In this document: positions 18,196 to 26,261 of the stretch, one piece after another
How positions within the stretch are numbered: the first letter of the stretch is position 1
How the letters are laid out: every line of letters begins with the position of its first letter
Source: Planctomycetaceae bacterium
GTDB lineage: Bacteria; Planctomycetota; Planctomycetia; Pirellulales; JAEUIK01
Direction: 5' to 3'
DNA: 26,261 bases
Assembly: GCA_016793185.1 (NCBI GenBank)
Contig: JAEUIK010000674.1
Coordinates: forward strand, 1 to 26,261
Position numbers and translations under genes: made by a program
Notes under the pieces: generated by a model
What the model saw: only the letters and a program-made list of their open reading frames with translations
Told to the model about the DNA's origin: nothing
Databases searched by the model: none

Positions 18196-18672
18196 ATGGG
18201 GACGAAATCGCTGCTTGGACTTTTCGCCGTCCTGTCGGTGTTCACGCTGTCGGGCCTGGGGGGCGACGCCGAAGAACCTAAGGGGGTGACCCTCCTCGGG
18301 ACGCTCGAAGAATGGCAGTACCCCGGCGCGAAGTTCGGCGGGGCGACCATGTTCGACGGTGGCAACCACCAGGTCGCCGCGACCAACTGCGAGGCGCTCC
18401 TGACGACCGACGACTCCGTCGAGCAGGTGGTCAGGTTCTACACACAAAAGTTCGTTCCCGGCCCGGCCGATGGCCGGAGTCCCCTCAAGCCGGGCGAGAT
18501 CGCGCAGGCTGTGGGCGTGCAGACCGATTCGGAGAATCGGCCCGTCGAGCTGCGCGTGATTACCGTGAACCGCGCCCGAAGTTCCACGACGCTGGTCGTC
18601 AGCCGGAGCCAGGGTGAGCAGAAGACGCACATTGCCTGGTCGCACTTTCAGTTGCTGGACCTCCCGCGCTAA
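18196..18672 (+). CDS. Small exported hypothetical protein
   Basis: 158 aa, signal-peptide-like N-terminus, GAGG RBS upstream of the ATG, G/C-ending codons. Confidence 0.75.
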   Translation: MGTKSLLGLFAVLSVFTLSGLGGDAEEPKGVTLLGTLEEWQYPGAKFGGATMFDGGNHQVAATNCEALLTTDDSVEQVVRFYTQKFVPGPADGRSPLKPGEIAQAVGVQTDSENRPVELRVITVNRARSSTTLVVSRSQGEQKTHIAWSHFQLLDLPR

Positions 18673-18702: not shown

Positions 18703-18867
18703 AGGGCGAGCGTATTGAGGGGGCCAGTCCGCGCGCCTGGCGCGAGGCCCAGCCGCGTGGTCGGCCGGTTTGGCCTTACGGTATGGCCTGCAACAGGTTA
18801 CGATTATTGTCCGGGTGGCGTCTGCCCCCTCGACGGAAATTCTCGGACCGAAGCCAGCGACCCGACC

Positions 18868-19539
18868 ATGCTGCAGCTCACGAACATCAAGAAGACCTTC
18901 ACCGAGCCTGGGGGAGGTCGCCTGCCGATCCTCGATATCCCTCGATTCCGCGTCGATGCCGGCGAGCAGCTCGCCCTGGTGGGGCGGAGCGGATCCGGCA
19001 AGACGACGCTCTTGCACACCATCGCGGGCATCAGCCGGCCCGATTCGGGCGTCGTCGAGATCGACGGCACCGATATCACCCGCCTGTCCGAGGCGGTGAC
19101 CGATCGCTTTCGGGCCGCCAAGATCGGCTACATCTTCCAGACGTTCAACCTGCTTCCGGCCTTCTCGGCGCTCGAGAACGTGCTGCTGGGGATGAGCTTT
19201 TCGCGGGGACGGGCCGATGAAGCCCGGGCCCGGCTGCTGCTCGACCGCGTGGGGCTCGGACATCGGCTGGCGCACAAACCCCAGATGCTCTCGGTGGGCG
19301 AAAAGCAGCGCGTGGCAGTCGCGCGGGCGCTGGCGAACCGGCCCAAGCTGATGCTGGCCGACGAACCGACGGCCAACGTCGACGCCCGGCATCAGCAGCA
19401 GATCATCGACCTGATCGTCGGGGCCTGCCGCGAGGAGAATGTGGCCCTGGTGCTGGTGACGCATGCCACCGAGGTGGCGGAGCAGTTCGAGCGCCTGGAG
19501 CACCTCGACCAACTCAATCAAGCGGTGGCCAACGTATGA
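18868..19539 (+). CDS. ABC transporter ATP-binding protein (LolD/MacB-type, PA4064/ZrgB-like)
   Basis: Walker A GRSGSGKT, Q-loop IFQTFNL, variant signature LSVGEKQR, Walker B LMLADEPT, H-loop VTH. ATG 18868 preferred. The stop overlaps the next start (ATGA). Confidence 0.93.
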   Translation: MLQLTNIKKTFTEPGGGRLPILDIPRFRVDAGEQLALVGRSGSGKTTLLHTIAGISRPDSGVVEIDGTDITRLSEAVTDRFRAAKIGYIFQTFNLLPAFSALENVLLGMSFSRGRADEARARLLLDRVGLGHRLAHKPQMLSVGEKQRVAVARALANRPKLMLADEPTANVDARHQQQIIDLIVGACREENVALVLVTHATEVAEQFERLEHLDQLNQAVANV

Positions 19540-21059
19540 GTCTCTGGAAGATCGCCTGGCGCAGTATTCAGCAGCGGACACTGGCTTCGAGCCTGACCGC
19601 CTTGTCGATGGCGCTGGGGGTGGCGCTGGTCGTGGCGGTGCTGGTCATTTACGGCGTGGTGCAATCGTCGTTCACCCGCGCGGCGCACGGCTACGATCTG
19701 ATCGTCGGCGCCAAGGGGGGCAAGCTGCAGCTTGTCCTCAATACCGTCTTTCACCTGAGCCAGCCGATCGAGAACATTCCCTGGAGCTACTACAAGGAGT
19801 TCCAGCCGGGAGGACGCTTCGCCTCGCGCGTCGAATTCGCCATCCCCTACTGCCTGGGGGATAACTACGAAGGGTACCGCGTCGTCGGCACCATTCCCGA
19901 GATGTTCTCCGCGGTCGAGTACGCGCCGGGCAAGCACTACGAGTTCTCGGCGGGCGAGAATTTCAAGAAAGACAACTACTTCGACGCGGTCGTCGGATCG
20001 GTGGTGGCCAGGCGCACCGGGCTGAAGGTCGGCGACCACTTTGCCCCGACGCACGGGATCAGCGCCGAAAAGGACGGCCATAAGCACGACGAATTTCACG
20101 TCGTGGGGATTCTCGCGCCGACGGGGACTCCCAACGATCGCGCGGTCTTCGTCAACATTGAGGGCTTCCTGCTGCTCGACGGCCACGCCAAGCCCGTCCC
20201 CAAAGAGGAAAAACCCGCCGCGACGGCACCCGCGCCCGACGGAAGCCACGCCGGGGAGCATGACCACGCCCATGAGAAAGCGCATGACGAGCACGCGCAC
20301 GGCGGCGAAGAAGGGGATCACCCCCCGGCAGCCGGCGAGGCTCAAACGGCCAAGCAGGCGGATGACGAGCACGCACACGCGGAGCACTCTCACGCCGACG
20401 AGCATGCCCATGGCGACGAGCACGCTCATGCCGATGAGCACGCCCATCATCACGATCACGACCATGACCATGGTCACCATCATCACCATCACGAGCCACT
20501 CCCCGAGAATCAGCGCGAGGTGACGGCAGTGCTCGTCAAGAGCACGCTGGTCGGCGGCCTGTCGCTTCCGCGCACGATCAACAAAGAGCAGTACGCCCAG
20601 GCCGTGTTCCCCGTGCAAGAGATCCAGATGCTGTTCAAGGGTCTCTTGGGGAATTTTCAGATGCTGCTGTTCGGGCTGGCGCTGCTGGTCGTGATCGTCT
20701 CGGGCATCAGCATCATGGTGAGCATCTACAACTCCATGAACGATCGCCGCAACGACATCGCGGTGATGCGGGCCCTGGGGGCCAGCCGCTCGACGGTCAT
20801 GGCCATCATCCTGCTGGAGTCGATTCTGCTGGCCGTCGGCGGGGGGGTGGCGGGCGTGCTCATCGGGCACGGCCTGATCGCCGCTCTCGACCCGATTATC
20901 GAGGCCCAGACAGGCATCCGGATCGGTTTCTTGAAGTTTGAGTGGGTTGAGTTAGTTTTAATACCGGCCCTGGTGGTGCTGGCCGCGGTGGTAGGCTACC
21001 TGCCTGCCGTGGTGGCCTATCGCACCGATGTGGCGGGAGCCCTGAGCGAGCGTCCCTGA
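19536..21059 (+). CDS. ABC transporter permease, MacB/FtsX family (PA4065/ZrgC-like), with His-rich periplasmic insert
   Basis: TM1 followed by DLIVGAKGGKLQLVLNTVFH, IPYCLGDNYEGYRVVGT and FHVVGILAPTGTPNDRAVF; three C-terminal TMs with RRNDIAVMRALGASR; His-rich insert at 20241-20492. Confidence 0.9.
   Translation: MSLWKIAWRSIQQRTLASSLTALSMALGVALVVAVLVIYGVVQSSFTRAAHGYDLIVGAKGGKLQLVLNTVFHLSQPIENIPWSYYKEFQPGGRFASRVEFAIPYCLGDNYEGYRVVGTIPEMFSAVEYAPGKHYEFSAGENFKKDNYFDAVVGSVVARRTGLKVGDHFAPTHGISAEKDGHKHDEFHVVGILAPTGTPNDRAVFVNIEGFLLLDGHAKPVPKEEKPAATAPAPDGSHAGEHDHAHEKAHDEHAHGGEEGDHPPAAGEAQTAKQADDEHAHAEHSHADEHAHGDEHAHADEHAHHHDHDHDHGHHHHHHEPLPENQREVTAVLVKSTLVGGLSLPRTINKEQYAQAVFPVQEIQMLFKGLLGNFQMLLFGLALLVVIVSGISIMVSIYNSMNDRRNDIAVMRALGASRSTVMAIILLESILLAVGGGVAGVLIGHGLIAALDPIIEAQTGIRIGFLKFEWVELVLIPALVVLAAVVGYLPAVVAYRTDVAGALSERP
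20241..20492 (+). repeat. His/Asp/Glu-rich low-complexity coding repeat, including imperfect 18-bp (A/G)DEHAH units
   Basis: 29 His in 84 codons; ADEHAH-GDEHAH-ADEHAH, then HHDHDHDHGHHHHHH. Confidence 0.9.
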
Positions 21060-21090: not shown

Positions 21091-22767
21091 ATGCGTCGCA
21101 TGCTCTCGAAGTGGACCTTACCGCTCTGTGTCGCGCTGGCGTTGGTACCGGCTGCCGCACTGGCCTGCCCCTTTTGCAGCGGCGTTTCGCTCACGCTCAG
21201 CGAAGAGATGAAGACCGCCACGGCCGCCGTGGTCGGCAAGCTCGTCTCGCTCCCCCCCGCTCCGGCCGACGGCCAGCCGCTGACCGGAGCCGACAGCAAG
21301 GCGGTCTTCGAGATCGTTACGGTCCTCAAGGGCGAAGATCTCCTGAAGACGGCCGACGCGCCGGCCGTGGGTCGCCAGATCGACGTGATCTATTTCGGCC
21401 AGGACGAGCCGGGCAAGCTCTTCTTTCTGCTCGGAAACGACACGCCCAACGTGAGTTGGGCCACGCCGATCCCGTTGACCGAGCGTTCGGCCGAATACGC
21501 GGCGAAGCTGCCCGGCCTGCCCGAGACGGGCGCCGATCGCCTGGCGTTCTTCCAGGACTACTTCGAAGACACCGAGGAGCTTCTGGCCCGCGATGCCTAC
21601 GATGAGTTCGCCAAGGCGCCGTACATCGAGGTCAAGCAGCTCAAGGAGCGAATGCAGCACGATAAGCTCGTCGCGCGGATCAAAGATCCCAACGTCTCGC
21701 CGAGCCGGCGGAGGCTGTACTTGACGATGCTCGGCGTGTGCGGCAGCAAGGACGATCTGCCGCTGCTCGAAGAAATCGTCAAGAGCCAGAATCCCGAGCA
21801 GAAGTCGGCCCTCGATGCGACGATCGCCTGCTATCTGACGCTCAACGGCGTCGATGGCCTGCCGCTGATCGAGGAGCTGTTCCTCAAGAAACCCGATGCC
21901 GAATACACCGACACGTACGCCGCGATCATGGCTTTGCGGTTTCATGGGCAGGAGGAATCGCAGATTCCGCGCGAGCGCTTGGTCGCGTCGTTGCGATTGA
22001 TGCTCGACCGCCCGGAGCTGGCCGACCTGGTGATTCCCGATCTCGCCCGCTGGCAGGATTGGTCGGCCATGGATCGGTTGGTGCAGCTTTTCAAAGAGGC
22101 CGACGAGCAGTCGAGCTGGGTGCGGGTGCCGGTGATCAAGTACCTGAAGGAGTGCCCGTTGCCGGAGGCGAAGGCGCACATCGAGGAGCTCGCCAAGATC
22201 GACCCGAAAGTGGTGCAGCAGGCCAATAGTTTCTTCCCGTTGGTGGGAGCCCCGGCGCCGCCGGCCGCTGCGGCCGATCCCGCCGCCACGGAACCTGCGG
22301 CGACCGACACGGCGGCAACCGCACCGGCGGCCGTCACGAATCCCCCCGCCGAGGGCGCAGCGAGCGAAGCTCCTGCCGATTCGACTCCGCCGGCCGAGAC
22401 CCAGGCGGCGACCGACAAGCCGGCCGAGACCGCCACGGAGCCGGCTGCCGCCGCGACGGCGCCCGAGGAGGCGTCCACGGCTGCCGCCAGTCCGGCCGAG
22501 TCGTCGGAGGCACCCGCCGCAGAACCCGCCAAGCCGGCAGAGCCGGCCAGTGCGGCGGAAGCGTCGCCTGCGGCGACGGCCGCGGTCGGGACCCCGCCCG
22601 CGACCGGAGCGATCGCAGCACCAGCGGCGGAGCGGGCCGTCGAGATCCGCGAGAATCCCTGGACGACCATGTTCTGGGTGCTCGCCATTCCGCTGGCGGT
22701 CGGCGTAGTATTGATGGGACTGCTGTTGGTGATCCTGCGTGGGCAGCGCCCTTCGGCGAGCGCCTGA
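21091..22767 (+). CDS. Exported protein with predicted N-terminal CPFC, helical (HEAT-like) core, Ala/Pro/Glu/Thr stalk and C-terminal membrane anchor
   Basis: Signal peptide ending ALA followed by CPFC (21166-21177); low-complexity stalk at about 22246-22629; TM FWVLAIPLAVGVVLMGLLLVIL followed by RGQR; GGAG RBS. Confidence 0.85.
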   Translation: MRRMLSKWTLPLCVALALVPAAALACPFCSGVSLTLSEEMKTATAAVVGKLVSLPPAPADGQPLTGADSKAVFEIVTVLKGEDLLKTADAPAVGRQIDVIYFGQDEPGKLFFLLGNDTPNVSWATPIPLTERSAEYAAKLPGLPETGADRLAFFQDYFEDTEELLARDAYDEFAKAPYIEVKQLKERMQHDKLVARIKDPNVSPSRRRLYLTMLGVCGSKDDLPLLEEIVKSQNPEQKSALDATIACYLTLNGVDGLPLIEELFLKKPDAEYTDTYAAIMALRFHGQEESQIPRERLVASLRLMLDRPELADLVIPDLARWQDWSAMDRLVQLFKEADEQSSWVRVPVIKYLKECPLPEAKAHIEELAKIDPKVVQQANSFFPLVGAPAPPAAAADPAATEPAATDTAATAPAAVTNPPAEGAASEAPADSTPPAETQAATDKPAETATEPAAAATAPEEASTAAASPAESSEAPAAEPAKPAEPASAAEASPAATAAVGTPPATGAIAAPAAERAVEIRENPWTTMFWVLAIPLAVGVVLMGLLLVILRGQRPSASA

Positions 22768-22808
22768 GTCCCCTGCCCTGCCTCGCAAGCTGACGGAACC
22801 AGAGAACG

Positions 22809-23483
22809 ATGAGCGTCGCCTTTGCCGAAAACTCGTACTCCGGCATGACTCCCGAGGGGGAGGATTATCGCGCCCTGAGCTCGACCGCCGTGGCGAGCCT
22901 CGTTGCCGGGGTTCTCTCGGTGCTCTGCTTTTTGGGATGGTCGATGGCCATCCTGCCTTTGCTGGGCGTGCTGCTCGGCGCGCGGGCACTCTGGAGCATT
23001 CGCCGCACGCCCGACGAACTGACCGGCAAGCGCCTCGCCGTGGCGGGAATCGTGCTCTCGCTGGCCTGCTTTGCCGGCGGCTGGGGATGGTTGAGCTACG
23101 TCTATCTGACGGAGGTGCCCGACGGTTACACCCGCGTCTCGTTCAGCCAGTTGCAGCCCGACGCCTCGCGGCAGGGAGAGATCTTTCCCCCGTCAGCCTT
23201 GGAGCTGGATGGCAAGCGCGTGTTCATCAAGGGCTACGTCAAGCCGGGCGCACAAGCCGGCGGCATCAAGGAGTTCCTGCTGGTGCGCGACTTGCGCGAG
23301 TGCTGCTTCGGCGATTCGACGCCCAAGTTGACCGACATGGTTCTGGTACGCTTGCAGGATCCGCTGCGGGCCGATTTCTCGCTCTGGCCGCGTGGTTTGG
23401 CAGGCACGCTGCACGTCAAACCCGACGCGCTGGGACGACCCGACAGCGTGCTGTACTCCCTCGACGCGGACTATCTGAAATGA
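22809..23483 (+). CDS. DUF4190-like membrane domain fused to a DUF3299-like domain
   Basis: N-terminal AVASLVAGVLS...LLGVLLGARALWSIRR...GKRLAVAGIVLS is DUF4190-like. C-terminal LDGKRVFIKGY...FLLVRDLRECCFG is DUF3299-like. Confidence 0.8.
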   Translation: MSVAFAENSYSGMTPEGEDYRALSSTAVASLVAGVLSVLCFLGWSMAILPLLGVLLGARALWSIRRTPDELTGKRLAVAGIVLSLACFAGGWGWLSYVYLTEVPDGYTRVSFSQLQPDASRQGEIFPPSALELDGKRVFIKGYVKPGAQAGGIKEFLLVRDLRECCFGDSTPKLTDMVLVRLQDPLRADFSLWPRGLAGTLHVKPDALGRPDSVLYSLDADYLK

Positions 23484-24151
23484 TGCATCGTCTGCGGAGA
23501 GCCGGGCTGGCCTGCGGAGTGCTCGCCAGCTGGGGACTTGCGGGCTGCGAGAAAGCCGAGCTCGACGCGCCCCTCCCGCCCCCGGCGGTCGCCGAGGAGT
23601 CGGCGACGTCAGCGACGACGCCCCCGTCACCAGCGGCGGCCCCCGAAACGACGGCGGCTGCGACTTCCGCTGCGCTGCCTGCGGATCCGCGCGGCGGCGC
23701 AACACCTCCGGCGGCCGCGGCCCCGCCTCCGCCCAGTCGCCCGCGCGCTGCCAGCACGGCGCGGCGCAAGCCCGGCGAAGTGCAGGAGATCACCTTCGAC
23801 GACATCAAGTTTCCGATGGAGAAGGAGGATCCGTTCAAGCGTGAGCTGCTGACGCCGCAGATCGTGGCGCTCGACGGCCAGCCGATTCGGATTCGGGGCT
23901 ACATTCTGCCGAGCTTCCAGCAGACGGGCATCACGCAATTCGTGCTCGTGCGCGACAATCTGCAATGCTGCTTCGGCCCTGGCGCCGCGCTCTTCGATTG
24001 CATCATTGTCGAGATGCGCCCCGGCAAGTCGACCGATTACACGGTGCGGCCGGTGAGCGTCGAGGGCAAATTCACACTCGCCGAACTGGTCAATCCCGAC
24101 GATGGCAAGCATCTGGCCATTTATCATCTCGACGGCGAGAAAGTTCAGTAG
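23480..24151 (+). CDS. DUF3299-like lipoprotein (PA4066/ZrgD-like)
   Basis: ATG 23480 overlaps the upstream TGA. Lipobox LAG|C at C23, a Pro/Ala linker, then EITFDDI...LDGQPIRIRGYILP...FVLVRDNLQCCFG...VSVEGKF. The track start at 22739 is an upstream artefact. Confidence 0.85.
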   Translation: MMHRLRRAGLACGVLASWGLAGCEKAELDAPLPPPAVAEESATSATTPPSPAAAPETTAAATSAALPADPRGGATPPAAAAPPPPSRPRAASTARRKPGEVQEITFDDIKFPMEKEDPFKRELLTPQIVALDGQPIRIRGYILPSFQQTGITQFVLVRDNLQCCFGPGAALFDCIIVEMRPGKSTDYTVRPVSVEGKFTLAELVNPDDGKHLAIYHLDGEKVQ

Positions 24152-25301
24152 CCGCGCCAGCCTGGCGCCGCTCTGGAGCGCGTGCGCGATCGGCGTCGCG
24201 ACGCTGTGCTTGAGCGCGGCCCCGGCCAGGGCCTGCCCCTTCTGCAATGCTGTGCTTCCCTCGTTCGCGCAGACGCGTGAAGCCGCCGAAATCGTCGCCC
24301 TGGGCGAAGTCACCCGCAGTGAACCCCAGTTAGCCGTCCTGCTGCGGGGAGTGCTCAAGGGCCAGGATCGAGCGCGGGCGGGCGAGCGCATTGAAGTGGA
24401 GCGGGTCGAGCCGCTGGCCCCGGGCAGCCTGTGCCTGCTCCTGGCCACGACGGCCGTCGAGCCGAGCGTCAAGGAACCAGGACTGGTCTGGACCTACCGG
24501 CCGGTGACGGAGACGAGTTACGCGTACTTTGCCCGAGCGCCGGAACTGCGCGTCGCTGGGCCGGAGCGTTTGCGCTACTTCGCCCGCTACCTCGAGCACC
24601 CCGACGCCAACATCGCGGCCGACGCGTACCTCGAGTTTGGGCATGCCCCGTTCGACGTCGTGGCACAAGCGGCCGACTCCCTGCCGCTCGAGAGCATGCG
24701 CCGCTGGATCGTCGACGAGAACGTGCCTCAGGAGCGCAAGGGCTTCTATGGGCTGGCACTGGGATTGGCGCGCGAGGCCCGCATACGCGGCGAGAACGCG
24801 GCGCTGCTCGCGCGTCTGGTCCGCGAGCCAGCCGACGATTTTCGCGCCGGATTCGGCGGCATCCTCAGCGGATATCTGCTGGCCGCGGGTGAGCCGGCGC
24901 TCGATCTGCTCGACGAACGTTTTCTGGCCCAAGCGGGCGCCGCCGATGGAGATGTCCGCAGTGCGCTGGCGGCGCTGCGGTTTTATCACGAGTTCGGCAA
25001 GGAGATTCCGCACGAGCGATTGCGCGCCAGCTTGCGCCACCTGGTGGCCCGCCAGGAGTTCGCGGCGGAGGCGATCGTTGATCTGGCCCGCTGGCAGGAT
25101 TGGGGAATGGTGAGCGAGGTAGCGCGCTTCTACGATGCTCCCGCCGAGGTGCAACCGTCGGCGCGTCGGGCCGCGGTGGGTTATTTGTCGGCCTGTCCCT
25201 TGCCGGCAGCGGCGGCCGAACTGGCCGAGCTGCGGGCCCGCGATCCGCGTGGAGTGGGGGATGCGGAGGCTTATCTCAAGGCGTTCGGCGCCCTGCGCTG
25301 A
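24102..25301 (+). CDS. Exported CPFC protein, paralog of 21091-22767, without stalk or membrane anchor
   Basis: ARA followed by CPFC (24234-24245). Shares blocks with 21091-22767: DAYxEFxxAP(Y/F), DLARWQDW and YLxxCPLPxA. Start codon uncertain. Confidence 0.8.
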   Translation: MASIWPFIISTARKFSSRASLAPLWSACAIGVATLCLSAAPARACPFCNAVLPSFAQTREAAEIVALGEVTRSEPQLAVLLRGVLKGQDRARAGERIEVERVEPLAPGSLCLLLATTAVEPSVKEPGLVWTYRPVTETSYAYFARAPELRVAGPERLRYFARYLEHPDANIAADAYLEFGHAPFDVVAQAADSLPLESMRRWIVDENVPQERKGFYGLALGLAREARIRGENAALLARLVREPADDFRAGFGGILSGYLLAAGEPALDLLDERFLAQAGAADGDVRSALAALRFYHEFGKEIPHERLRASLRHLVARQEFAAEAIVDLARWQDWGMVSEVARFYDAPAEVQPSARRAAVGYLSACPLPAAAAELAELRARDPRGVGDAEAYLKAFGALR

Positions 25302-25351: not shown

Positions 25352-25379
25352 TTGCGTCTCCGCGGCCGTCGAGTATACT
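25352..25379 (+). promoter_or_regulatory. Candidate sigma70-type promoter for ricT
   Basis: TTGCGT (25352-25357), 16 bp spacer, TATACT (25374-25379), about 110 bp upstream of ATG 25490. Confidence 0.5.
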
Positions 25380-25489
25380 TGGCCTGCCAGCGCATCCGCG
25401 GGGCGAACTCCCCGCCGCATCGACAAAGCTCGTCGGAGTTGGGTTCCGGCGGTGACCTCTTAACTCGACCTCTCCGCGACGCTGTTTTC

Positions 25490-26261
25490 ATGCCCAAGTA
25501 CGTCGTTCGCTGTGGCTCGACTCGCTCGCTCGGGGTTTTTGGAACCGCTCAGGGGGCCATTTATCGCCGGGGAGCGCGCGTCATCGCGCGCACCGACCGG
25601 GGACTCGAGGCGGGCGAGGTTCTCTGCGAAGCAACCGACGCGGCGGTCGGGTTTCTCGACGAACCAACCCGCGGACAGGTCCTCCGCGCGATGACCGGCG
25701 ACGATGAGAACGAGTTGTCGCGGATGCACGCGCAGGAGCGAGCCGAGTTCGAGAGTTGCCGCCGCCACATCGCAGCGCTCGAGCTGCCGATGGAACTGGT
25801 GGACGTCGAGCACCTGTTTGGCGGAGAGCGGATCGTCTTCTATTACCTGGCGGAGAACCGGGTCGATTTCCGCGAGTTGGTGAAGCTGTTGGCCGGCGAG
25901 TTCCAGACGCGGATCGAAATGCGGCAGATCGGCGTCCGCGACGAGGCCAAGCTGCTGGCCGATTACGGCGATTGCGGCAAGCCCGTCTGCTGCAATACGC
26001 ACTTGACCAAGATGCCCCCCGTTTCGATGCGCATGGCCAAGTTGCAAAAGGCGACCCTGGATCCGACGAAAATCTCCGGGCGCTGCGGGCGGCTGAAATG
26101 TTGTCTACGCTATGAGTTCGACACCTACGAGGAGTTGCAGAAGGAGCTGCCCCCGGTCAACGCTCAGGTGATCTCGTCCAAGGGACGAGGCCGGGTGCTC
26201 GGGCAGGAGATCCTTGCCGGCCAGGTCCTGCTTGAGATGGAGGATCATCGGCGGCTGCTGT
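25490..26261 (+). CDS. ricT: PSP1-domain protein RicT/YaaT, 3'-truncated by the window edge (absent from the ORF track)
   Basis: Hand translation from ATG 25490 gives MPKYVVRCG...VIARTDRGLEAGEV...RVDFRELVKLLAGEFQTRIEMRQIGVRDEAKLLADYGDCGKPVCC...KISGRCGRLKCCLRYE, with no stop before the window end. Confidence 0.9.
   Translation, partial: MPKYVVRCGSTRSLGVFGTAQGAIYRRGARVIARTDRGLEAGEVLCEATDAAVGFLDEPTRGQVLRAMTGDDENELSRMHAQERAEFESCRRHIAALELPMELVDVEHLFGGERIVFYYLAENRVDFRELVKLLAGEFQTRIEMRQIGVRDEAKLLADYGDCGKPVCCNTHLTKMPPVSMRMAKLQKATLDPTKISGRCGRLKCCLRYEFDTYEELQKELPPVNAQVISSKGRGRVLGQEILAGQVLLEMEDHRRLL

What the first reader, a model, noticed from the sequence alone, without database searches (positions are those of the whole stretch)
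21091..25301. Two paralogous exported proteins whose mature N-terminus would be Cys-Pro-Phe-Cys
Seen: both have a hydrophobic signal followed by A-x-A (ALA, ARA) and then CPFC. Conserved blocks run along their length: LARDAYDEFAKAPY vs IAADAYLEFGHAPF, RRRLYLTMLG vs RKGFYGLALG, DLARWQDW in both, KYLKECPLPEA vs GYLSACPLPAA. I recognise no named family. Inference: signal peptidase I cleavage exposes a free-amine Cys in a CxxC, which could act as a metal site or a redox pair. A beta-rich N-domain followed by a helical HEAT-like domain, in one anchored and one soluble copy, suggests a relay or heterodimer.
Basis: partly seen in the sequence, partly recalled or inferred. Interest (0 to 1): 0.7.

Follow-up and report, generated by a model that had tools for sequence, protein, structure and literature searches.

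The report
Cysteine-tipped partner proteins of Zrg-like transporter
Two related exported proteins of a Pirellulales planctomycete begin, once their export signal is removed, with Cys-Pro-Phe-Cys on a TIMP-like barrel joined to a helical-repeat domain. They belong to an unnamed family that always sits beside DUF3299 proteins of a transporter resembling the poorly understood zinc-starvation systems of Vibrio and Pseudomonas.

Summary
ORF A (21091-22767, 558 aa) and ORF B (24102-25301, 399 aa) are paralogs (31% identity, E 5e-43). Each has a Sec-type signal ending in small-x-small directly before CPFC.

The CxxC is near-invariant: 235 of about 250 N-complete homologs, and 76 of 80 further named genomes. 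Its context fits signal peptidase I (77%), not a lipobox (9% strict).

No Pfam, NCBIfam or PDB sequence family matches. The fold is an OB barrel closest to TIMP/NTR modules and HypC, followed by an ARM/HEAT solenoid.

The family is present in 133 of 147 good genomes of the order, usually as an A+B pair. It is always next to two DUF3299 proteins with an invariant CCFG loop, and usually next to a split MacB-type ABC transporter. This is the PA4064-66/ZrgBCE module without its His-rich ZrgA/PA4063 partner.

A controlled complex prediction supports B docking onto the lipoprotein DUF3299 (0.75 against 0.02). The contact surface is the conserved ALRF and DLARWQDW blocks.

Best reading (about 45%): these are DUF3299-docking subunits whose N-terminal dithiol hook handles a thiophilic metal. 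A thiol-disulfide relay is the main rival.

Zur regulation could not be shown. The scan has met this system before in at least 14 other genomes.

The parts
18868..19539 (+). ABC ATPase subunit of a split MacB-type (type VII) transporter
   Evidence: PF00005 ABC_tran, E 7.8e-35. Its stop overlaps the permease start. Conserved at this position in L003, L004, L018, L020 and L025.
19536..21059 (+). FtsX/MacB-type permease with a large periplasmic domain that carries a His-rich insert (about 20241-20492)
   Evidence: PF02687 FtsX 2.9e-16 and PF12704 MacB_PCD 5e-10. 28 His within 80 residues. Orthologs have a His-rich patch of variable length at the same place (L003 26 in 80; L004 HDHEHAHEHEH; L018 HDHSGHDHGH). 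The unrelated MacB of family f117 has none.
21091..22767 (+). ORF A, the anchored CPFC protein: signal peptide (21091-21165), CPFC (21166-21177), OB + ARM/HEAT core (to about 22246), Pro/Ala/Thr/Glu-rich linker, C-terminal TM helix (about 22660-22737)
   Evidence: 2299 cluster representatives at E<=0.001 and 721 at E<=1e-30. No Pfam or NCBIfam family.
22809..23483 (+). D1: membrane-anchored DUF4190 + DUF3299-like protein with a CCFG loop
   Evidence: PF13828 2.7e-11; PF11736 0.0049, below the cut-off. Paralog of D2. Adjacent to CPFC genes in every locus examined.
23480..24151 (+). D2: lipoprotein DUF3299 (LAGC lipobox, Pro/Ala linker, OB domain with an invariant RDNxxCCFG loop)
   Evidence: PF11736 8.7e-6, above the cut-off. 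Hits PDB 4hsp = PA4066, E 0.007 (identity of 4hsp from PMC8561739). Its ATG overlaps the D1 stop (ATGA). CCFG is invariant in 14 orthologs and present in 59 of 60 upstream genes.
24102..25301 (+). ORF B, the soluble CPFC protein: 44-aa signal (24102-24233), CPFC (24234-24245), OB domain (residues about 55-145), ARM/HEAT solenoid (to residue 394)
   Evidence: Its first 50 nt overlap the end of D2. Predicted to dock on D2.

Best explanation
A and B are periplasm-facing subunits of a Pirellulales-wide variant of the MacB-type ABC / DUF3299 module. That module is known from the zinc-repressed PA4064-66 (Pseudomonas) and ZrgBCE (Vibrio) systems.

Both are exported by Sec and cut by signal peptidase I directly before Cys1. 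The mature proteins therefore start with a free amine on Cys-Pro-Phe-Cys (inferred from sequence rules).

The ARM/HEAT solenoid is a docking platform. Its conserved ALRF, DLARWQDW and GYL/KYL surface grips the OB domain of a DUF3299 protein (predicted, not measured). This places the flexible CPFC tip next to the partner.

The two thiols, possibly with the N-terminal amine, and the invariant Cys-Cys loop of DUF3299 then bind or hand over a thiophilic metal ion such as Zn, Co or Cu (inferred). The ATP-driven MacB-type engine with its His-rich periplasmic patch would serve this cycle.

A, on a long tether from the inner membrane, and B, which is soluble, would pair with the membrane-anchored D1 and the lipoprotein D2. 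In this system they take the place that the His-rich ZrgA/PA4063 protein holds in proteobacteria.
For: Export and cleavage:
- -1 is Ala or Gly in 89% of homologs; -3 is Ala/Ser/Val/Gly/Thr in 85%.
- The -3/-1 rule is met in 180 of 234 homologs. The strict lipobox is met in 22 of 234.

Membership of the system:
- ATPase-FtsX-A-D1-D2-B, or ...D1-D2-CPFC-CPFC, is conserved across three families.
- DUF3299 with CCFG lies directly upstream in 60 of 73 named loci.
- 133 of 147 good genomes of the order carry the family, mostly as two copies about 3 kb apart.
- In a separate 60-genome sample of the order, every genome outside f117 has two strong DUF3299 hits. Where both searches list coordinates (e.g. 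G350), these lie beside the CPFC genes. Family f117 had no CPFC family in 14 genomes and only one weak DUF3299 in the 3 searched.
- DUF3299 = ZrgE (PMC9817125) = PA4066/4hsp (PMC8561739). PA4064/65 is a MacB-type, Zn-repressed system tied to Co/Zn homeostasis (PMC11481552).

Docking:
- Complex prediction of B(45-399) with D2(95-221) scored 0.75, best of 3 controls 0.02.
- That mark was reached by 58 of 80 solved complexes and 2 of 110 mismatched pairs. My own alignments were used, so these counts hold only roughly.
- Runs agree in at least 76% of contacts; partner pLDDT is at least 81.
- No like complex is solved.
- The interface includes P46, 50-53, R293, F294, D327, A329-Q332 and Y361 of B, and the invariant D105, R137, G138, P142, F152, R156, R188 and P189 of D2.
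- 8 of 43 family-wide conserved positions fall in the interface, against 4.4 expected.

Metal:
- A His-rich patch recurs at the same place in the permeases.
- The DUF3299 loop keeps one universal Cys, while its neighbours swap between Cys and His: CC here, C-x-H in PA4066, HCxxC in f117.
- Extra A-type paralogs keep two Cys near the N-terminus as CC or CLC.
- A CxxC-less homolog is an orphan away from the operon.
- The N-domain is an OB barrel like HypC and TIMP. From general knowledge, not a source read here, both of those use an N-terminal Cys at a metal centre.
Against: - No metal binding, cleavage site or redox state has been measured for any member.
- PA4066 is reported to show no evident Zn binding (PMC11481552).
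- A metal-responsive regulator could not be linked. The conserved TTGCAA-N5-TTGCAA operator-like palindrome sits upstream of a COG0523 gene in one genome only. It is absent from 14 other COG0523 loci and from 3 ZnuA loci.
- ZnuA-family genes coexist with the system in 51 of 60 genomes, so there is no complementary distribution.
- C-P-x-C is the classic redox-active motif, and the segment resembles the DsbE active-site helix.
- The periplasm is oxidising, so the CxxC may simply be a disulfide.
- The listed contacts do not name C45, C48 or the CC pair, so a shared four-Cys site is an inference.
- pLDDT of the CPFC segment is only about 68-71.
Confidence: 0.45

Rival explanations
1. Thiol-disulfide relay. 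The flexible N-terminal CPFC is a redox-active shuttle arm. It oxidises, reduces or forms a mixed disulfide with the vicinal Cys-Cys of the docked DUF3299 protein, or with a Cys-containing cargo of the MacB-type transporter. Metal is not its ligand.
For: - C-P-F-C is the active-site motif of glutaredoxins and several DsbA/DsbE proteins (general knowledge; papers listed).
- The only PDB sequence hit of the N-domain profile is Mtb Mpt53/DsbE: CPFCNAEAPSLSQ... aligned to CPFCtalkPtlaq..., E 0.014.
- The predicted complex puts the N-terminal segment against D2, near residues 156 and 158-159 that flank the CC loop.
- Both Cys motifs are invariant.
Against: - There is no thioredoxin fold. The residues after CPFC form a short helix and an OB barrel.
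- No DsbD/CcdA-like electron source lies in the operon.
- Cys/His interchange in the DUF3299 loop across subtypes and the His-rich permease patch fit metal ligands better than redox centres.
- E 0.014 over 30 residues is not significant.
Confidence: 0.25
2. TIMP-like cap. The free alpha-amine and carbonyl of Cys1, held rigid by a Cys1-Cys4 disulfide, plug a metal already bound in a partner protein. This would inhibit or gate the partner, in the way TIMPs block metalloproteinases.
For: - The N-domain's best Foldseek hits are agrin NtA, PCOLCE NTR and TIMP-1 (TM by query 0.52-0.56, E 0.008-0.2, whole domain aligned).
- VIA-align places NTR/TIMP modules at Z 5.2-7.1.
- The Atlas search finds a bacterial cluster partly labelled PF00965 TIMP.
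- Like TIMPs, the mature protein would start with Cys.
Against: - There is no sequence match to TIMP or NTR Pfam models.
- The TIMP disulfide partners are missing; only two conserved Cys lie in the domain.
- No protease gene is in or beside the operon in any locus.
- Extra paralogs place their Cys pair 2-5 residues after the probable cleavage site.
- Z under 8 is in the range of common arrangements.
Confidence: 0.08
3. Lipoproteins. Cys1 is diacylglycerol-modified after signal peptidase II cleavage, so it is a membrane anchor and only Cys4 is free.
For: - Ala or Gly at -1 followed by an invariant Cys also fits the lipobox.
- A's own sequence (AALA-C) passes the permissive PROSITE rule, as do 64 of 234 homologs.
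Against: - The strict lipobox is met in only 22 of 234 homologs.
- Position -2 is Arg, Glu, Gln, Lys, Trp or Pro in about a quarter, including B itself (R); Leu at -3 occurs in only 13%.
- A already has a C-terminal TM anchor.
- Invariance of Pro, Phe and the second Cys is not explained.
- The true lipoprotein D2 in the same operon has a textbook LAGC.
Confidence: 0.07
4. Purely structural pair. The two Cys form a disulfide that staples the N-terminus. The proteins are only scaffolds or adaptors linking DUF3299 proteins to the transporter.
For: - The solenoid is a generic protein-binding fold.
- Docking is predicted mainly through the solenoid.
- The periplasm is oxidising.
Against: - A four-residue staple at a flexible terminus gives little stability, yet C, P, F and C are the most conserved residues of the family.
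- The Cys pair is retained in a different form (CC, CLC) in divergent paralogs.
Confidence: 0.1

Closest known systems
PA4063-PA4066 of Pseudomonas aeruginosa and ZrgABCDE of Vibrio (Zur-regulated MacB-type ABC systems)
   Same: Both have a split ABC ATPase and FtsX/MacB permease followed by DUF3299 protein(s) (PA4066 = ZrgE). His-rich periplasmic elements are present. There is no membrane-fusion protein in the operon (PMC9817125, PMC8561739, PMC11481552).
   Different: There is no ZrgA/PA4063 (DUF2796, ferredoxin-like His-rich protein) and no ZrgD. DUF3299 is duplicated (one TM-anchored, one lipoprotein) and carries CCFG instead of C-x-H. One or two CPFC OB-HEAT proteins are added. Zur control is not shown here.
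TIMP / NTR (netrin-like) modules
   Same: An OB barrel flanked by helices, with the mature chain starting at a Cys exposed by signal-peptide removal.
   Different: There is no sequence relationship. It has CxxC instead of CxC with long-range disulfides. It is fused to a solenoid and is bacterial and periplasmic. No protease partner is evident.
HypC/HupF hydrogenase maturation chaperones
   Same: A small OB barrel (VIA Z 7.1, rmsd 2.2 over 63 residues). From general knowledge, the HypC N-terminal Cys is the metal-binding residue.
   Different: HypC is cytoplasmic, its Cys sits directly on strand 1, and it has no CxxC and no solenoid. Here the CPFC lies 18 residues before strand 1.
DsbE/TlpA/ResA thioredoxin-fold oxidoreductases (e.g. 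Mtb Mpt53, PDB 1lu4)
   Same: The local motif CPFC-N-A-x-x-P-S-x-x-Q matches the active-site helix. Both are extracytoplasmic.
   Different: There is no thioredoxin fold. The hydrophobic stretch before CxxC is a signal peptide, not strand beta-1.
Bacterial HEAT/ARM proteins such as E. coli YibA and PBS-lyase HEAT repeats
   Same: The C-terminal 250 residues form an alpha-solenoid (YibA 1oyz Z 11.8; designed armadillo TM 0.35). A few homologs carry a faint PF13646 HEAT_2 label.
   Different: Here the solenoid is exported, is preceded by an OB domain and CPFC, and carries its own conserved motifs (DAYxEF, ALRF, DLARWQDW).

Membership tests
Zrg / PA4063-66-type system | Split MacB-type ABC transporter (separate ATPase and FtsX-type permease with MacB periplasmic core domain) | tested here: met
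   PF00005, PF02687 and PF12704 on the two upstream ORFs.
Zrg / PA4063-66-type system | DUF3299 (ZrgE/PA4066) protein encoded in the operon | tested here: met
   PF11736 8.7e-6, above the cut-off, for D2. Hit to 4hsp, E 0.007. D1 is a weaker paralog.
Zrg / PA4063-66-type system | His-rich periplasmic metal-binding protein ZrgA (DUF2796) or PA4063 | tested here: not met
   None of the six ORFs matches such a family. CPFC proteins occupy its place, and the His-rich tract lies in the permease instead.
Zrg / PA4063-66-type system | Repression by zinc through Zur | tested here: inconclusive
   A conserved palindrome lies upstream of seven orthologous operons. It is shared with one COG0523 gene only, and is absent from 14 other COG0523 loci and 3 ZnuA loci.
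TIMP / NTR module | OB-type barrel with flanking helices and an N-terminal Cys at +1 of the mature chain | tested here: inconclusive
   Foldseek TM 0.52-0.56, E 0.008-0.2. VIA Z 5.2-7.1. Atlas row with PF00965 in 13% of members. These scores are in the range of common arrangements.
TIMP / NTR module | Conserved disulfides from the N-terminal CxC to distant Cys; match to the Pfam TIMP or NTR models | tested here: not met
   Only C1 and C4 are conserved in the domain. No TIMP or NTR hit even at E 10.
Thioredoxin-fold thiol-disulfide oxidoreductases | CxxC at the N-terminus of helix 1 within a beta-alpha-beta thioredoxin fold | tested here: not met
   CxxC is present, but models at pLDDT about 90 show coil, a short helix and an OB barrel. 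No redoxin Pfam hit above threshold.
Bacterial lipoproteins | Lipobox [LVI][ASTVI][GAS]C at the end of the signal peptide | tested here: not met
   Strict lipobox in 22 of 234 homologs, permissive in 64 of 234. B has Arg at -2.
HEAT/ARM alpha-solenoids | Stacked helical hairpin repeats | tested here: met
   14 helices from residue 153 onward. Z 10-12 to many solenoids. This is fold class only.
HypC family | Cytoplasmic protein, N-terminal MC[LIV][GA][LIV]P motif, Cys on strand 1 | tested here: not met
   The protein is exported, carries CPFC, and the motif lies 18 residues before strand 1. Only the barrel is alike.

The most novel reading that the evidence does not exclude
These proteins are a bacterial counterpart of the TIMP/NTR design. 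A free N-terminal Cys on an OB barrel reaches into a partner's metal site, here the Cys-Cys loop of DUF3299. The resulting composite thiolate-plus-amine centre shuttles metal to or from a mechanotransmitting MacB-type ABC engine. This would be a new class of periplasmic metallochaperone. It would also give the first working model for DUF3299 and the unexplained Zrg/PA4063-66 systems.
Probability: 0.25. Interest if true: 0.8.

Novelty: new variant of a known kind. Interest (0 to 1): 0.62.

Why it matters
The mechanism of the zinc-starvation MacB-type/DUF3299 systems of Pseudomonas and Vibrio is unknown, and DUF3299 has a solved structure but no function. The planctomycete version is nearly universal in one order. 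It replaces the His-rich partner with a large unnamed family, and it offers a specific, testable picture.

- The picture: a solenoid that grips DUF3299 and presents an invariant N-terminal Cys-Pro-Phe-Cys beside an invariant Cys-Cys loop.
- If the hook binds metal, it defines a new periplasmic metal-handling chemistry (free amine plus thiols, without lipidation of Cys+1). It also tells what DUF3299 does.
- If the hook is redox-active, it is a non-thioredoxin CxxC relay tied to an ABC engine.

Either way it gives mutants and complexes to test.

Tried and rejected
- Pfam and NCBIfam scans of A and B gave nothing.
- PDB sequence searches with the profiles gave no significant hit for the whole protein. 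For the N-domain there was only the local DsbE motif.
- Whole-protein Foldseek and VIA searches returned only generic solenoids.
- Pfam on 29 N-domains at E 10 gave no TIMP, NTR or redoxin family.
- Flanking genes in the window and in L018 are unrelated housekeeping or planctomycete genes, with no metal or redox genes.
- A Zur-box hunt found a TTGCAA-N5-TTGCAA palindrome overlapping the -35 region of seven orthologous operons. It is enriched 42 against 18 in G070 and sits upstream of one COG0523 gene. It is absent from 14 other COG0523 loci and 3 ZnuA loci, and absent from the window's own promoter. The regulator is therefore unassigned.
- Complementary distribution with ZnuA is rejected, because both are present in most genomes.
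- Cytochrome c-type CxxCH is rejected, because no His follows the motif.
- The conserved N-terminal MAxTWPSIIS of B orthologs is explained by the 50-nt overlap with the conserved end of D2, not by function.
- An A-B heterodimer and A-D1 pairing were not tested.

Full report
**The sequence.** The finding covers the last four genes of a six-gene, co-directional operon on the + strand.
- ABC ATPase: 18868-19539.
- FtsX/MacB-type permease: 19536-21059.
- ORF A: 21091-22767.
- D1, a DUF4190 + DUF3299-like membrane protein: 22809-23483.
- D2, a DUF3299 lipoprotein: 23480-24151.
- ORF B: 24102-25301.

The junctions are tight. The ATPase and permease overlap. The D1 stop and D2 start share ATGA. D2 and B overlap by 50 nt. 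The window is 64-70% G+C, and its other genes are typical of planctomycetes: BatA/VWA, DUF58, PSCyt2/PSD1 and PSP1.

A has a canonical 25-residue signal ending AALA, and B has a 44-residue signal ending PARA. In both, the next four residues are Cys-Pro-Phe-Cys. For B, the ATG at 24102 is the only ATG/GTG/TTG start upstream of the hydrophobic core of the signal.

The conserved MAxTWPSIIS at the N-terminus of many B orthologs coincides with the overlap onto the conserved C-terminus of D2. I read it as a by-product of that overlap.

**How conserved the motif is.**
- CPFC is invariant in 30 B orthologs of 45-66% identity.
- Among 270 homologs from two database searches, 235 have CxxC right after the hydrophobic segment. 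Pro is at +2 in 228 and Phe at +3 in 223. Most of the rest are N-terminally truncated.
- In 80 further loci from named Pirellulales or Planctomycetia assemblies, 73 have CPFC and 3 have another CxxC.
- In the window's own assembly, no other ORF of at least 150 aa in any frame combines a hydrophobic segment, small -3/-1 residues and CxxC in its first 70 residues.

**Cleavage.** SignalP was not on hand, so I used rules.
- Position -1 is Ala or Gly in 89% of homologs.
- Position -3 is Ala, Ser, Val, Gly or Thr in 85%, and Leu in only 13%.
- Position -2 is often Arg, Gln, Glu, Lys, Trp or Pro.
- The -3/-1 rule is met in 180 of 234 homologs. The permissive PROSITE lipobox is met in 64 and the strict lipobox in 22.
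- The lipoprotein D2 in the same operon has a textbook LAGC.

Signal peptidase I cutting directly before Cys1 is therefore the likely processing, but it is inferred.

**Fold.** An AlphaFold2 model of B built on 30 orthologs has pLDDT 89.5. It shows a short helix, a five-stranded beta domain (residues 64-135) and an alpha-solenoid to residue 394. The CPFC segment is less confident, at about 68.

Whole-protein searches return only generic ARM/HEAT solenoids: designed armadillo proteins, YibA, importins and adaptins.

The N-domain modelled alone (mature residues 1-106, pLDDT 90.1) is an OB barrel.
- VIA-align ranks HypC (Z 7.1, rmsd 2.2 over 63 residues), NTR/TIMP-like modules (C3 C345C 7.1, agrin NtA 7.0, PCOLCE 6.5, TIMP-3 5.8, TIMP-1 5.2), cold-shock domains and the CusF-like SilB domain (6.2).
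- Foldseek puts agrin NtA, PCOLCE NTR and TIMP-1 first (TM by query 0.52-0.56, E 0.008-0.2), with the whole domain aligned.
- An ESM Atlas shape search adds a bacterial cluster in which 13% of members carry PF00965 TIMP. It also adds Acidobacteriota HEAT proteins with a similar N-domain.

These scores establish the fold class (OB, TIMP/NTR-like topology). They do not establish homology. No TIMP or NTR Pfam model matches even at E 10, and the TIMP disulfide partners are absent.

At the sequence level, the only PDB hit of the N-domain profile is the active-site segment of the thioredoxin-fold Mpt53/DsbE: CPFCNAEAPSLSQ..., E 0.014. It is a local resemblance that keeps a redox role alive.

**Family and distribution.**
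- No Pfam or NCBIfam family matches.
- A exhaustive search with A finds 2299 cluster representatives at E<=0.001 and 721 at E<=1e-30.
- All named hits are hypothetical proteins of Pirellulales or Planctomycetia.
- Across the phylum, 18 of 301 sampled genomes have it, concentrated in a few families.
- Within the window's order, 133 of 147 good genomes and 27 of 28 families have it, typically as two copies about 3 kb apart.
- A-type proteins mostly carry the long linker and C-terminal TM helix; B-type proteins do not.

**Context.** The gene order ATPase-permease-A-D1-D2-B recurs in other families of the order. A different family has ATPase-permease-D1-D2-CPFC-CPFC. Others have only one CPFC gene.
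- In every locus with flanks, DUF3299 genes abut the CPFC gene.
- In 60 of 73 named loci, a DUF3299 gene with CCFG lies directly upstream of the B-type gene, mostly with the same 46-nt overlap.
- In a separate 60-genome sample of the order, every genome outside family f117 has two strong DUF3299 hits. These lie beside the CPFC genes wherever both searches list coordinates. Family f117 has no CPFC protein in 14 genomes, and the 3 searched for DUF3299 have one weak hit each.
- The f117 DUF3299 gene sits in a conventional MFP-ATPase-permease operon, and its loop reads HCQFC instead of CCFG.

DUF3299 is ZrgE of the Vibrio Zur regulon (PMC9817125). It is also PA4066 of P. aeruginosa, PDB 4hsp, an OB-like fold of unknown role (PMC8561739). 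D2 hits 4hsp directly. PA4064/65 form a MacB-type transporter that is repressed by zinc and implicated in cobalt/pyochelin export (PMC11481552).

The window's operon is therefore a variant of that module. It lacks ZrgA/PA4063, has DUF3299 duplicated, and adds the CPFC proteins.

**Partner prediction.** The two genes overlap, and their adjacency is the most conserved. The result:
- Score 0.75, 0.74 and 0.75 in three runs, with best control 0.02.
- The mark was reached by 58 of 80 solved complexes and 2 of 110 mismatched pairs. My own alignments were used, so these counts hold only roughly.
- The runs share at least 76% of contacts, and partner pLDDT is at least 81.
- No similar complex is solved, so the pass is not recall.

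The interface on B comprises P46, 50-53, 183-184, R293, F294, 297-298, 326-332 (within DLARWQDW), 360-364 and the C-terminal helix. On D2 it comprises the invariant D105, R137, G138, P142, F152, R156, R188 and P189, plus residues 158-159 next to the CC loop.

Of 43 positions conserved in both A- and B-types, 8 lie in this interface, against 4.4 expected. This supports binding; it does not show it.

**What the Cys pair does.** Several points favour metal handling.
- The module's relatives are metal-regulated.
- The permeases of CPFC-type operons carry a His-rich patch of variable length at one place in the periplasmic domain. It has 28 His in 80 residues here, and short HDHxH runs even in a distant family.
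- The DUF3299 loop keeps one universal Cys while neighbouring ligand-type residues vary: CC here, C-x-H in PA4066, H-C-x-x-C in f117.
- Extra A-type paralogs in one genome replace CPFC by CC or CLC near the N-terminus, still two thiols.
- A homolog without any Cys pair is an orphan away from the operon. Another is an extra copy beside an intact one.
- The closest OB analogues, HypC and TIMP, both act through an N-terminal Cys at a metal centre (established knowledge).

Points against:
- Nothing has been measured.
- PA4066 is reported not to bind zinc evidently.
- CPxC is the classic redox motif.
- The periplasm is oxidising.
- The complex output does not list C45, C48 or the CC pair among confident contacts.

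I put metal hand-off at about 0.45, a thiol-disulfide relay at 0.25, and the remainder on a structural staple, a TIMP-like cap or lipidation.

**Regulation, tried without success.** Upstream regions of 22 orthologous operons show conserved promoter-like elements of two types. Seven carry a TTGCAA-N5-TTGCAA palindrome overlapping a -35-like hexamer.
- In one genome this palindrome, with one mismatch allowed, occurs 42 times against 18 for the reversed control. One copy sits about 60 nt upstream of a COG0523 GTPase gene, a family often in Zur regulons.
- It is absent near 14 other COG0523 loci and near ZnuA-family genes of three genomes that have the palindrome at the operon.
- The window's own promoter is of the other type.
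- ZnuA-family genes coexist with the system in 51 of 60 genomes.

Zinc control therefore remains an assumption taken from proteobacteria.

**Standing.** This scan has met the same system in at least 14 other genomes, and earlier follow-ups reached similar readings: Zrg-like module, CPFC hook, TIMP-like fold. I saw those notes only after my own searches, and I treat them as agreement, not as evidence.

The protein family is unnamed and uncharacterised. The system is a new variant of a known but unexplained kind.

Noticed in passing
window 20241-20492: The His/Asp/Glu-rich insert in the periplasmic domain of the permease has 28 His in 80 residues. Orthologs carry a His patch of very different length at the same position; the unrelated MacB of family f117 has none.
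   Followed up: partly
window 23480-23483 and 24102-24151: Translational coupling: the D2 ATG overlaps the D1 TGA (ATGA), and B starts 50 nt inside D2. The conserved MAxTWPSIIS N-terminus of B orthologs coincides with this overlap with the conserved end of D2.
   Followed up: partly
L018 6326, L020 11637, L025 2313, L129, L132, L133, L139 (upstream of the ATPase gene): A TTGCAA-N5-TTGCAA palindrome overlaps a -35-like hexamer in seven orthologous operons. One copy also lies upstream of a COG0523 gene in G070 (L032 3051). The regulator is unknown. The window's own promoter (about 18775-18815) is of another conserved type (CTTACG ... TACGAT).
   Followed up: partly
L027 7720-12671 (-): Family f117 lacks CPFC proteins. 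It has MFP-ATPase-permease followed by a DUF4190-DUF3299 protein whose loop reads LSHCQFCQS, that is, its own H-C-x-x-C where the window's proteins have CCFG.
   Followed up: partly
L025 4717-11860: One Pirellulales MAG has three tandem A-type paralogs with N-terminal GCLCGPP, SSICCAGP and ACPFC. D1, D2, a B-type gene and PSP1 follow, which is the same downstream neighbour as in the window (25352-26260).
   Followed up: partly
window 24102-25301, residue 365 (A residue 355): A third Cys, in the motif A/E-C-P-L-P, is conserved in 85-88% of both types. It lies on the helix (360-364) that contacts D2 in the predicted complex, so it may sit near the CPFC tip.
   Followed up: no
ESM Atlas clusters: Acidobacteriota and Verrucomicrobiota HEAT_2 proteins of 290-550 aa resemble B in both language-model features and N-domain shape. 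A 137-aa Actinomycetota cluster is partly labelled PF00965 TIMP. Whether these carry an N-terminal Cys motif was not checked.
   Followed up: no
window 18196-18672: A small exported protein (158 aa, signal-like N-terminus) with no Pfam family lies just upstream of the operon. It is not conserved at that position in L003 or L004, where RidA and SmpB genes lie upstream.
   Followed up: no
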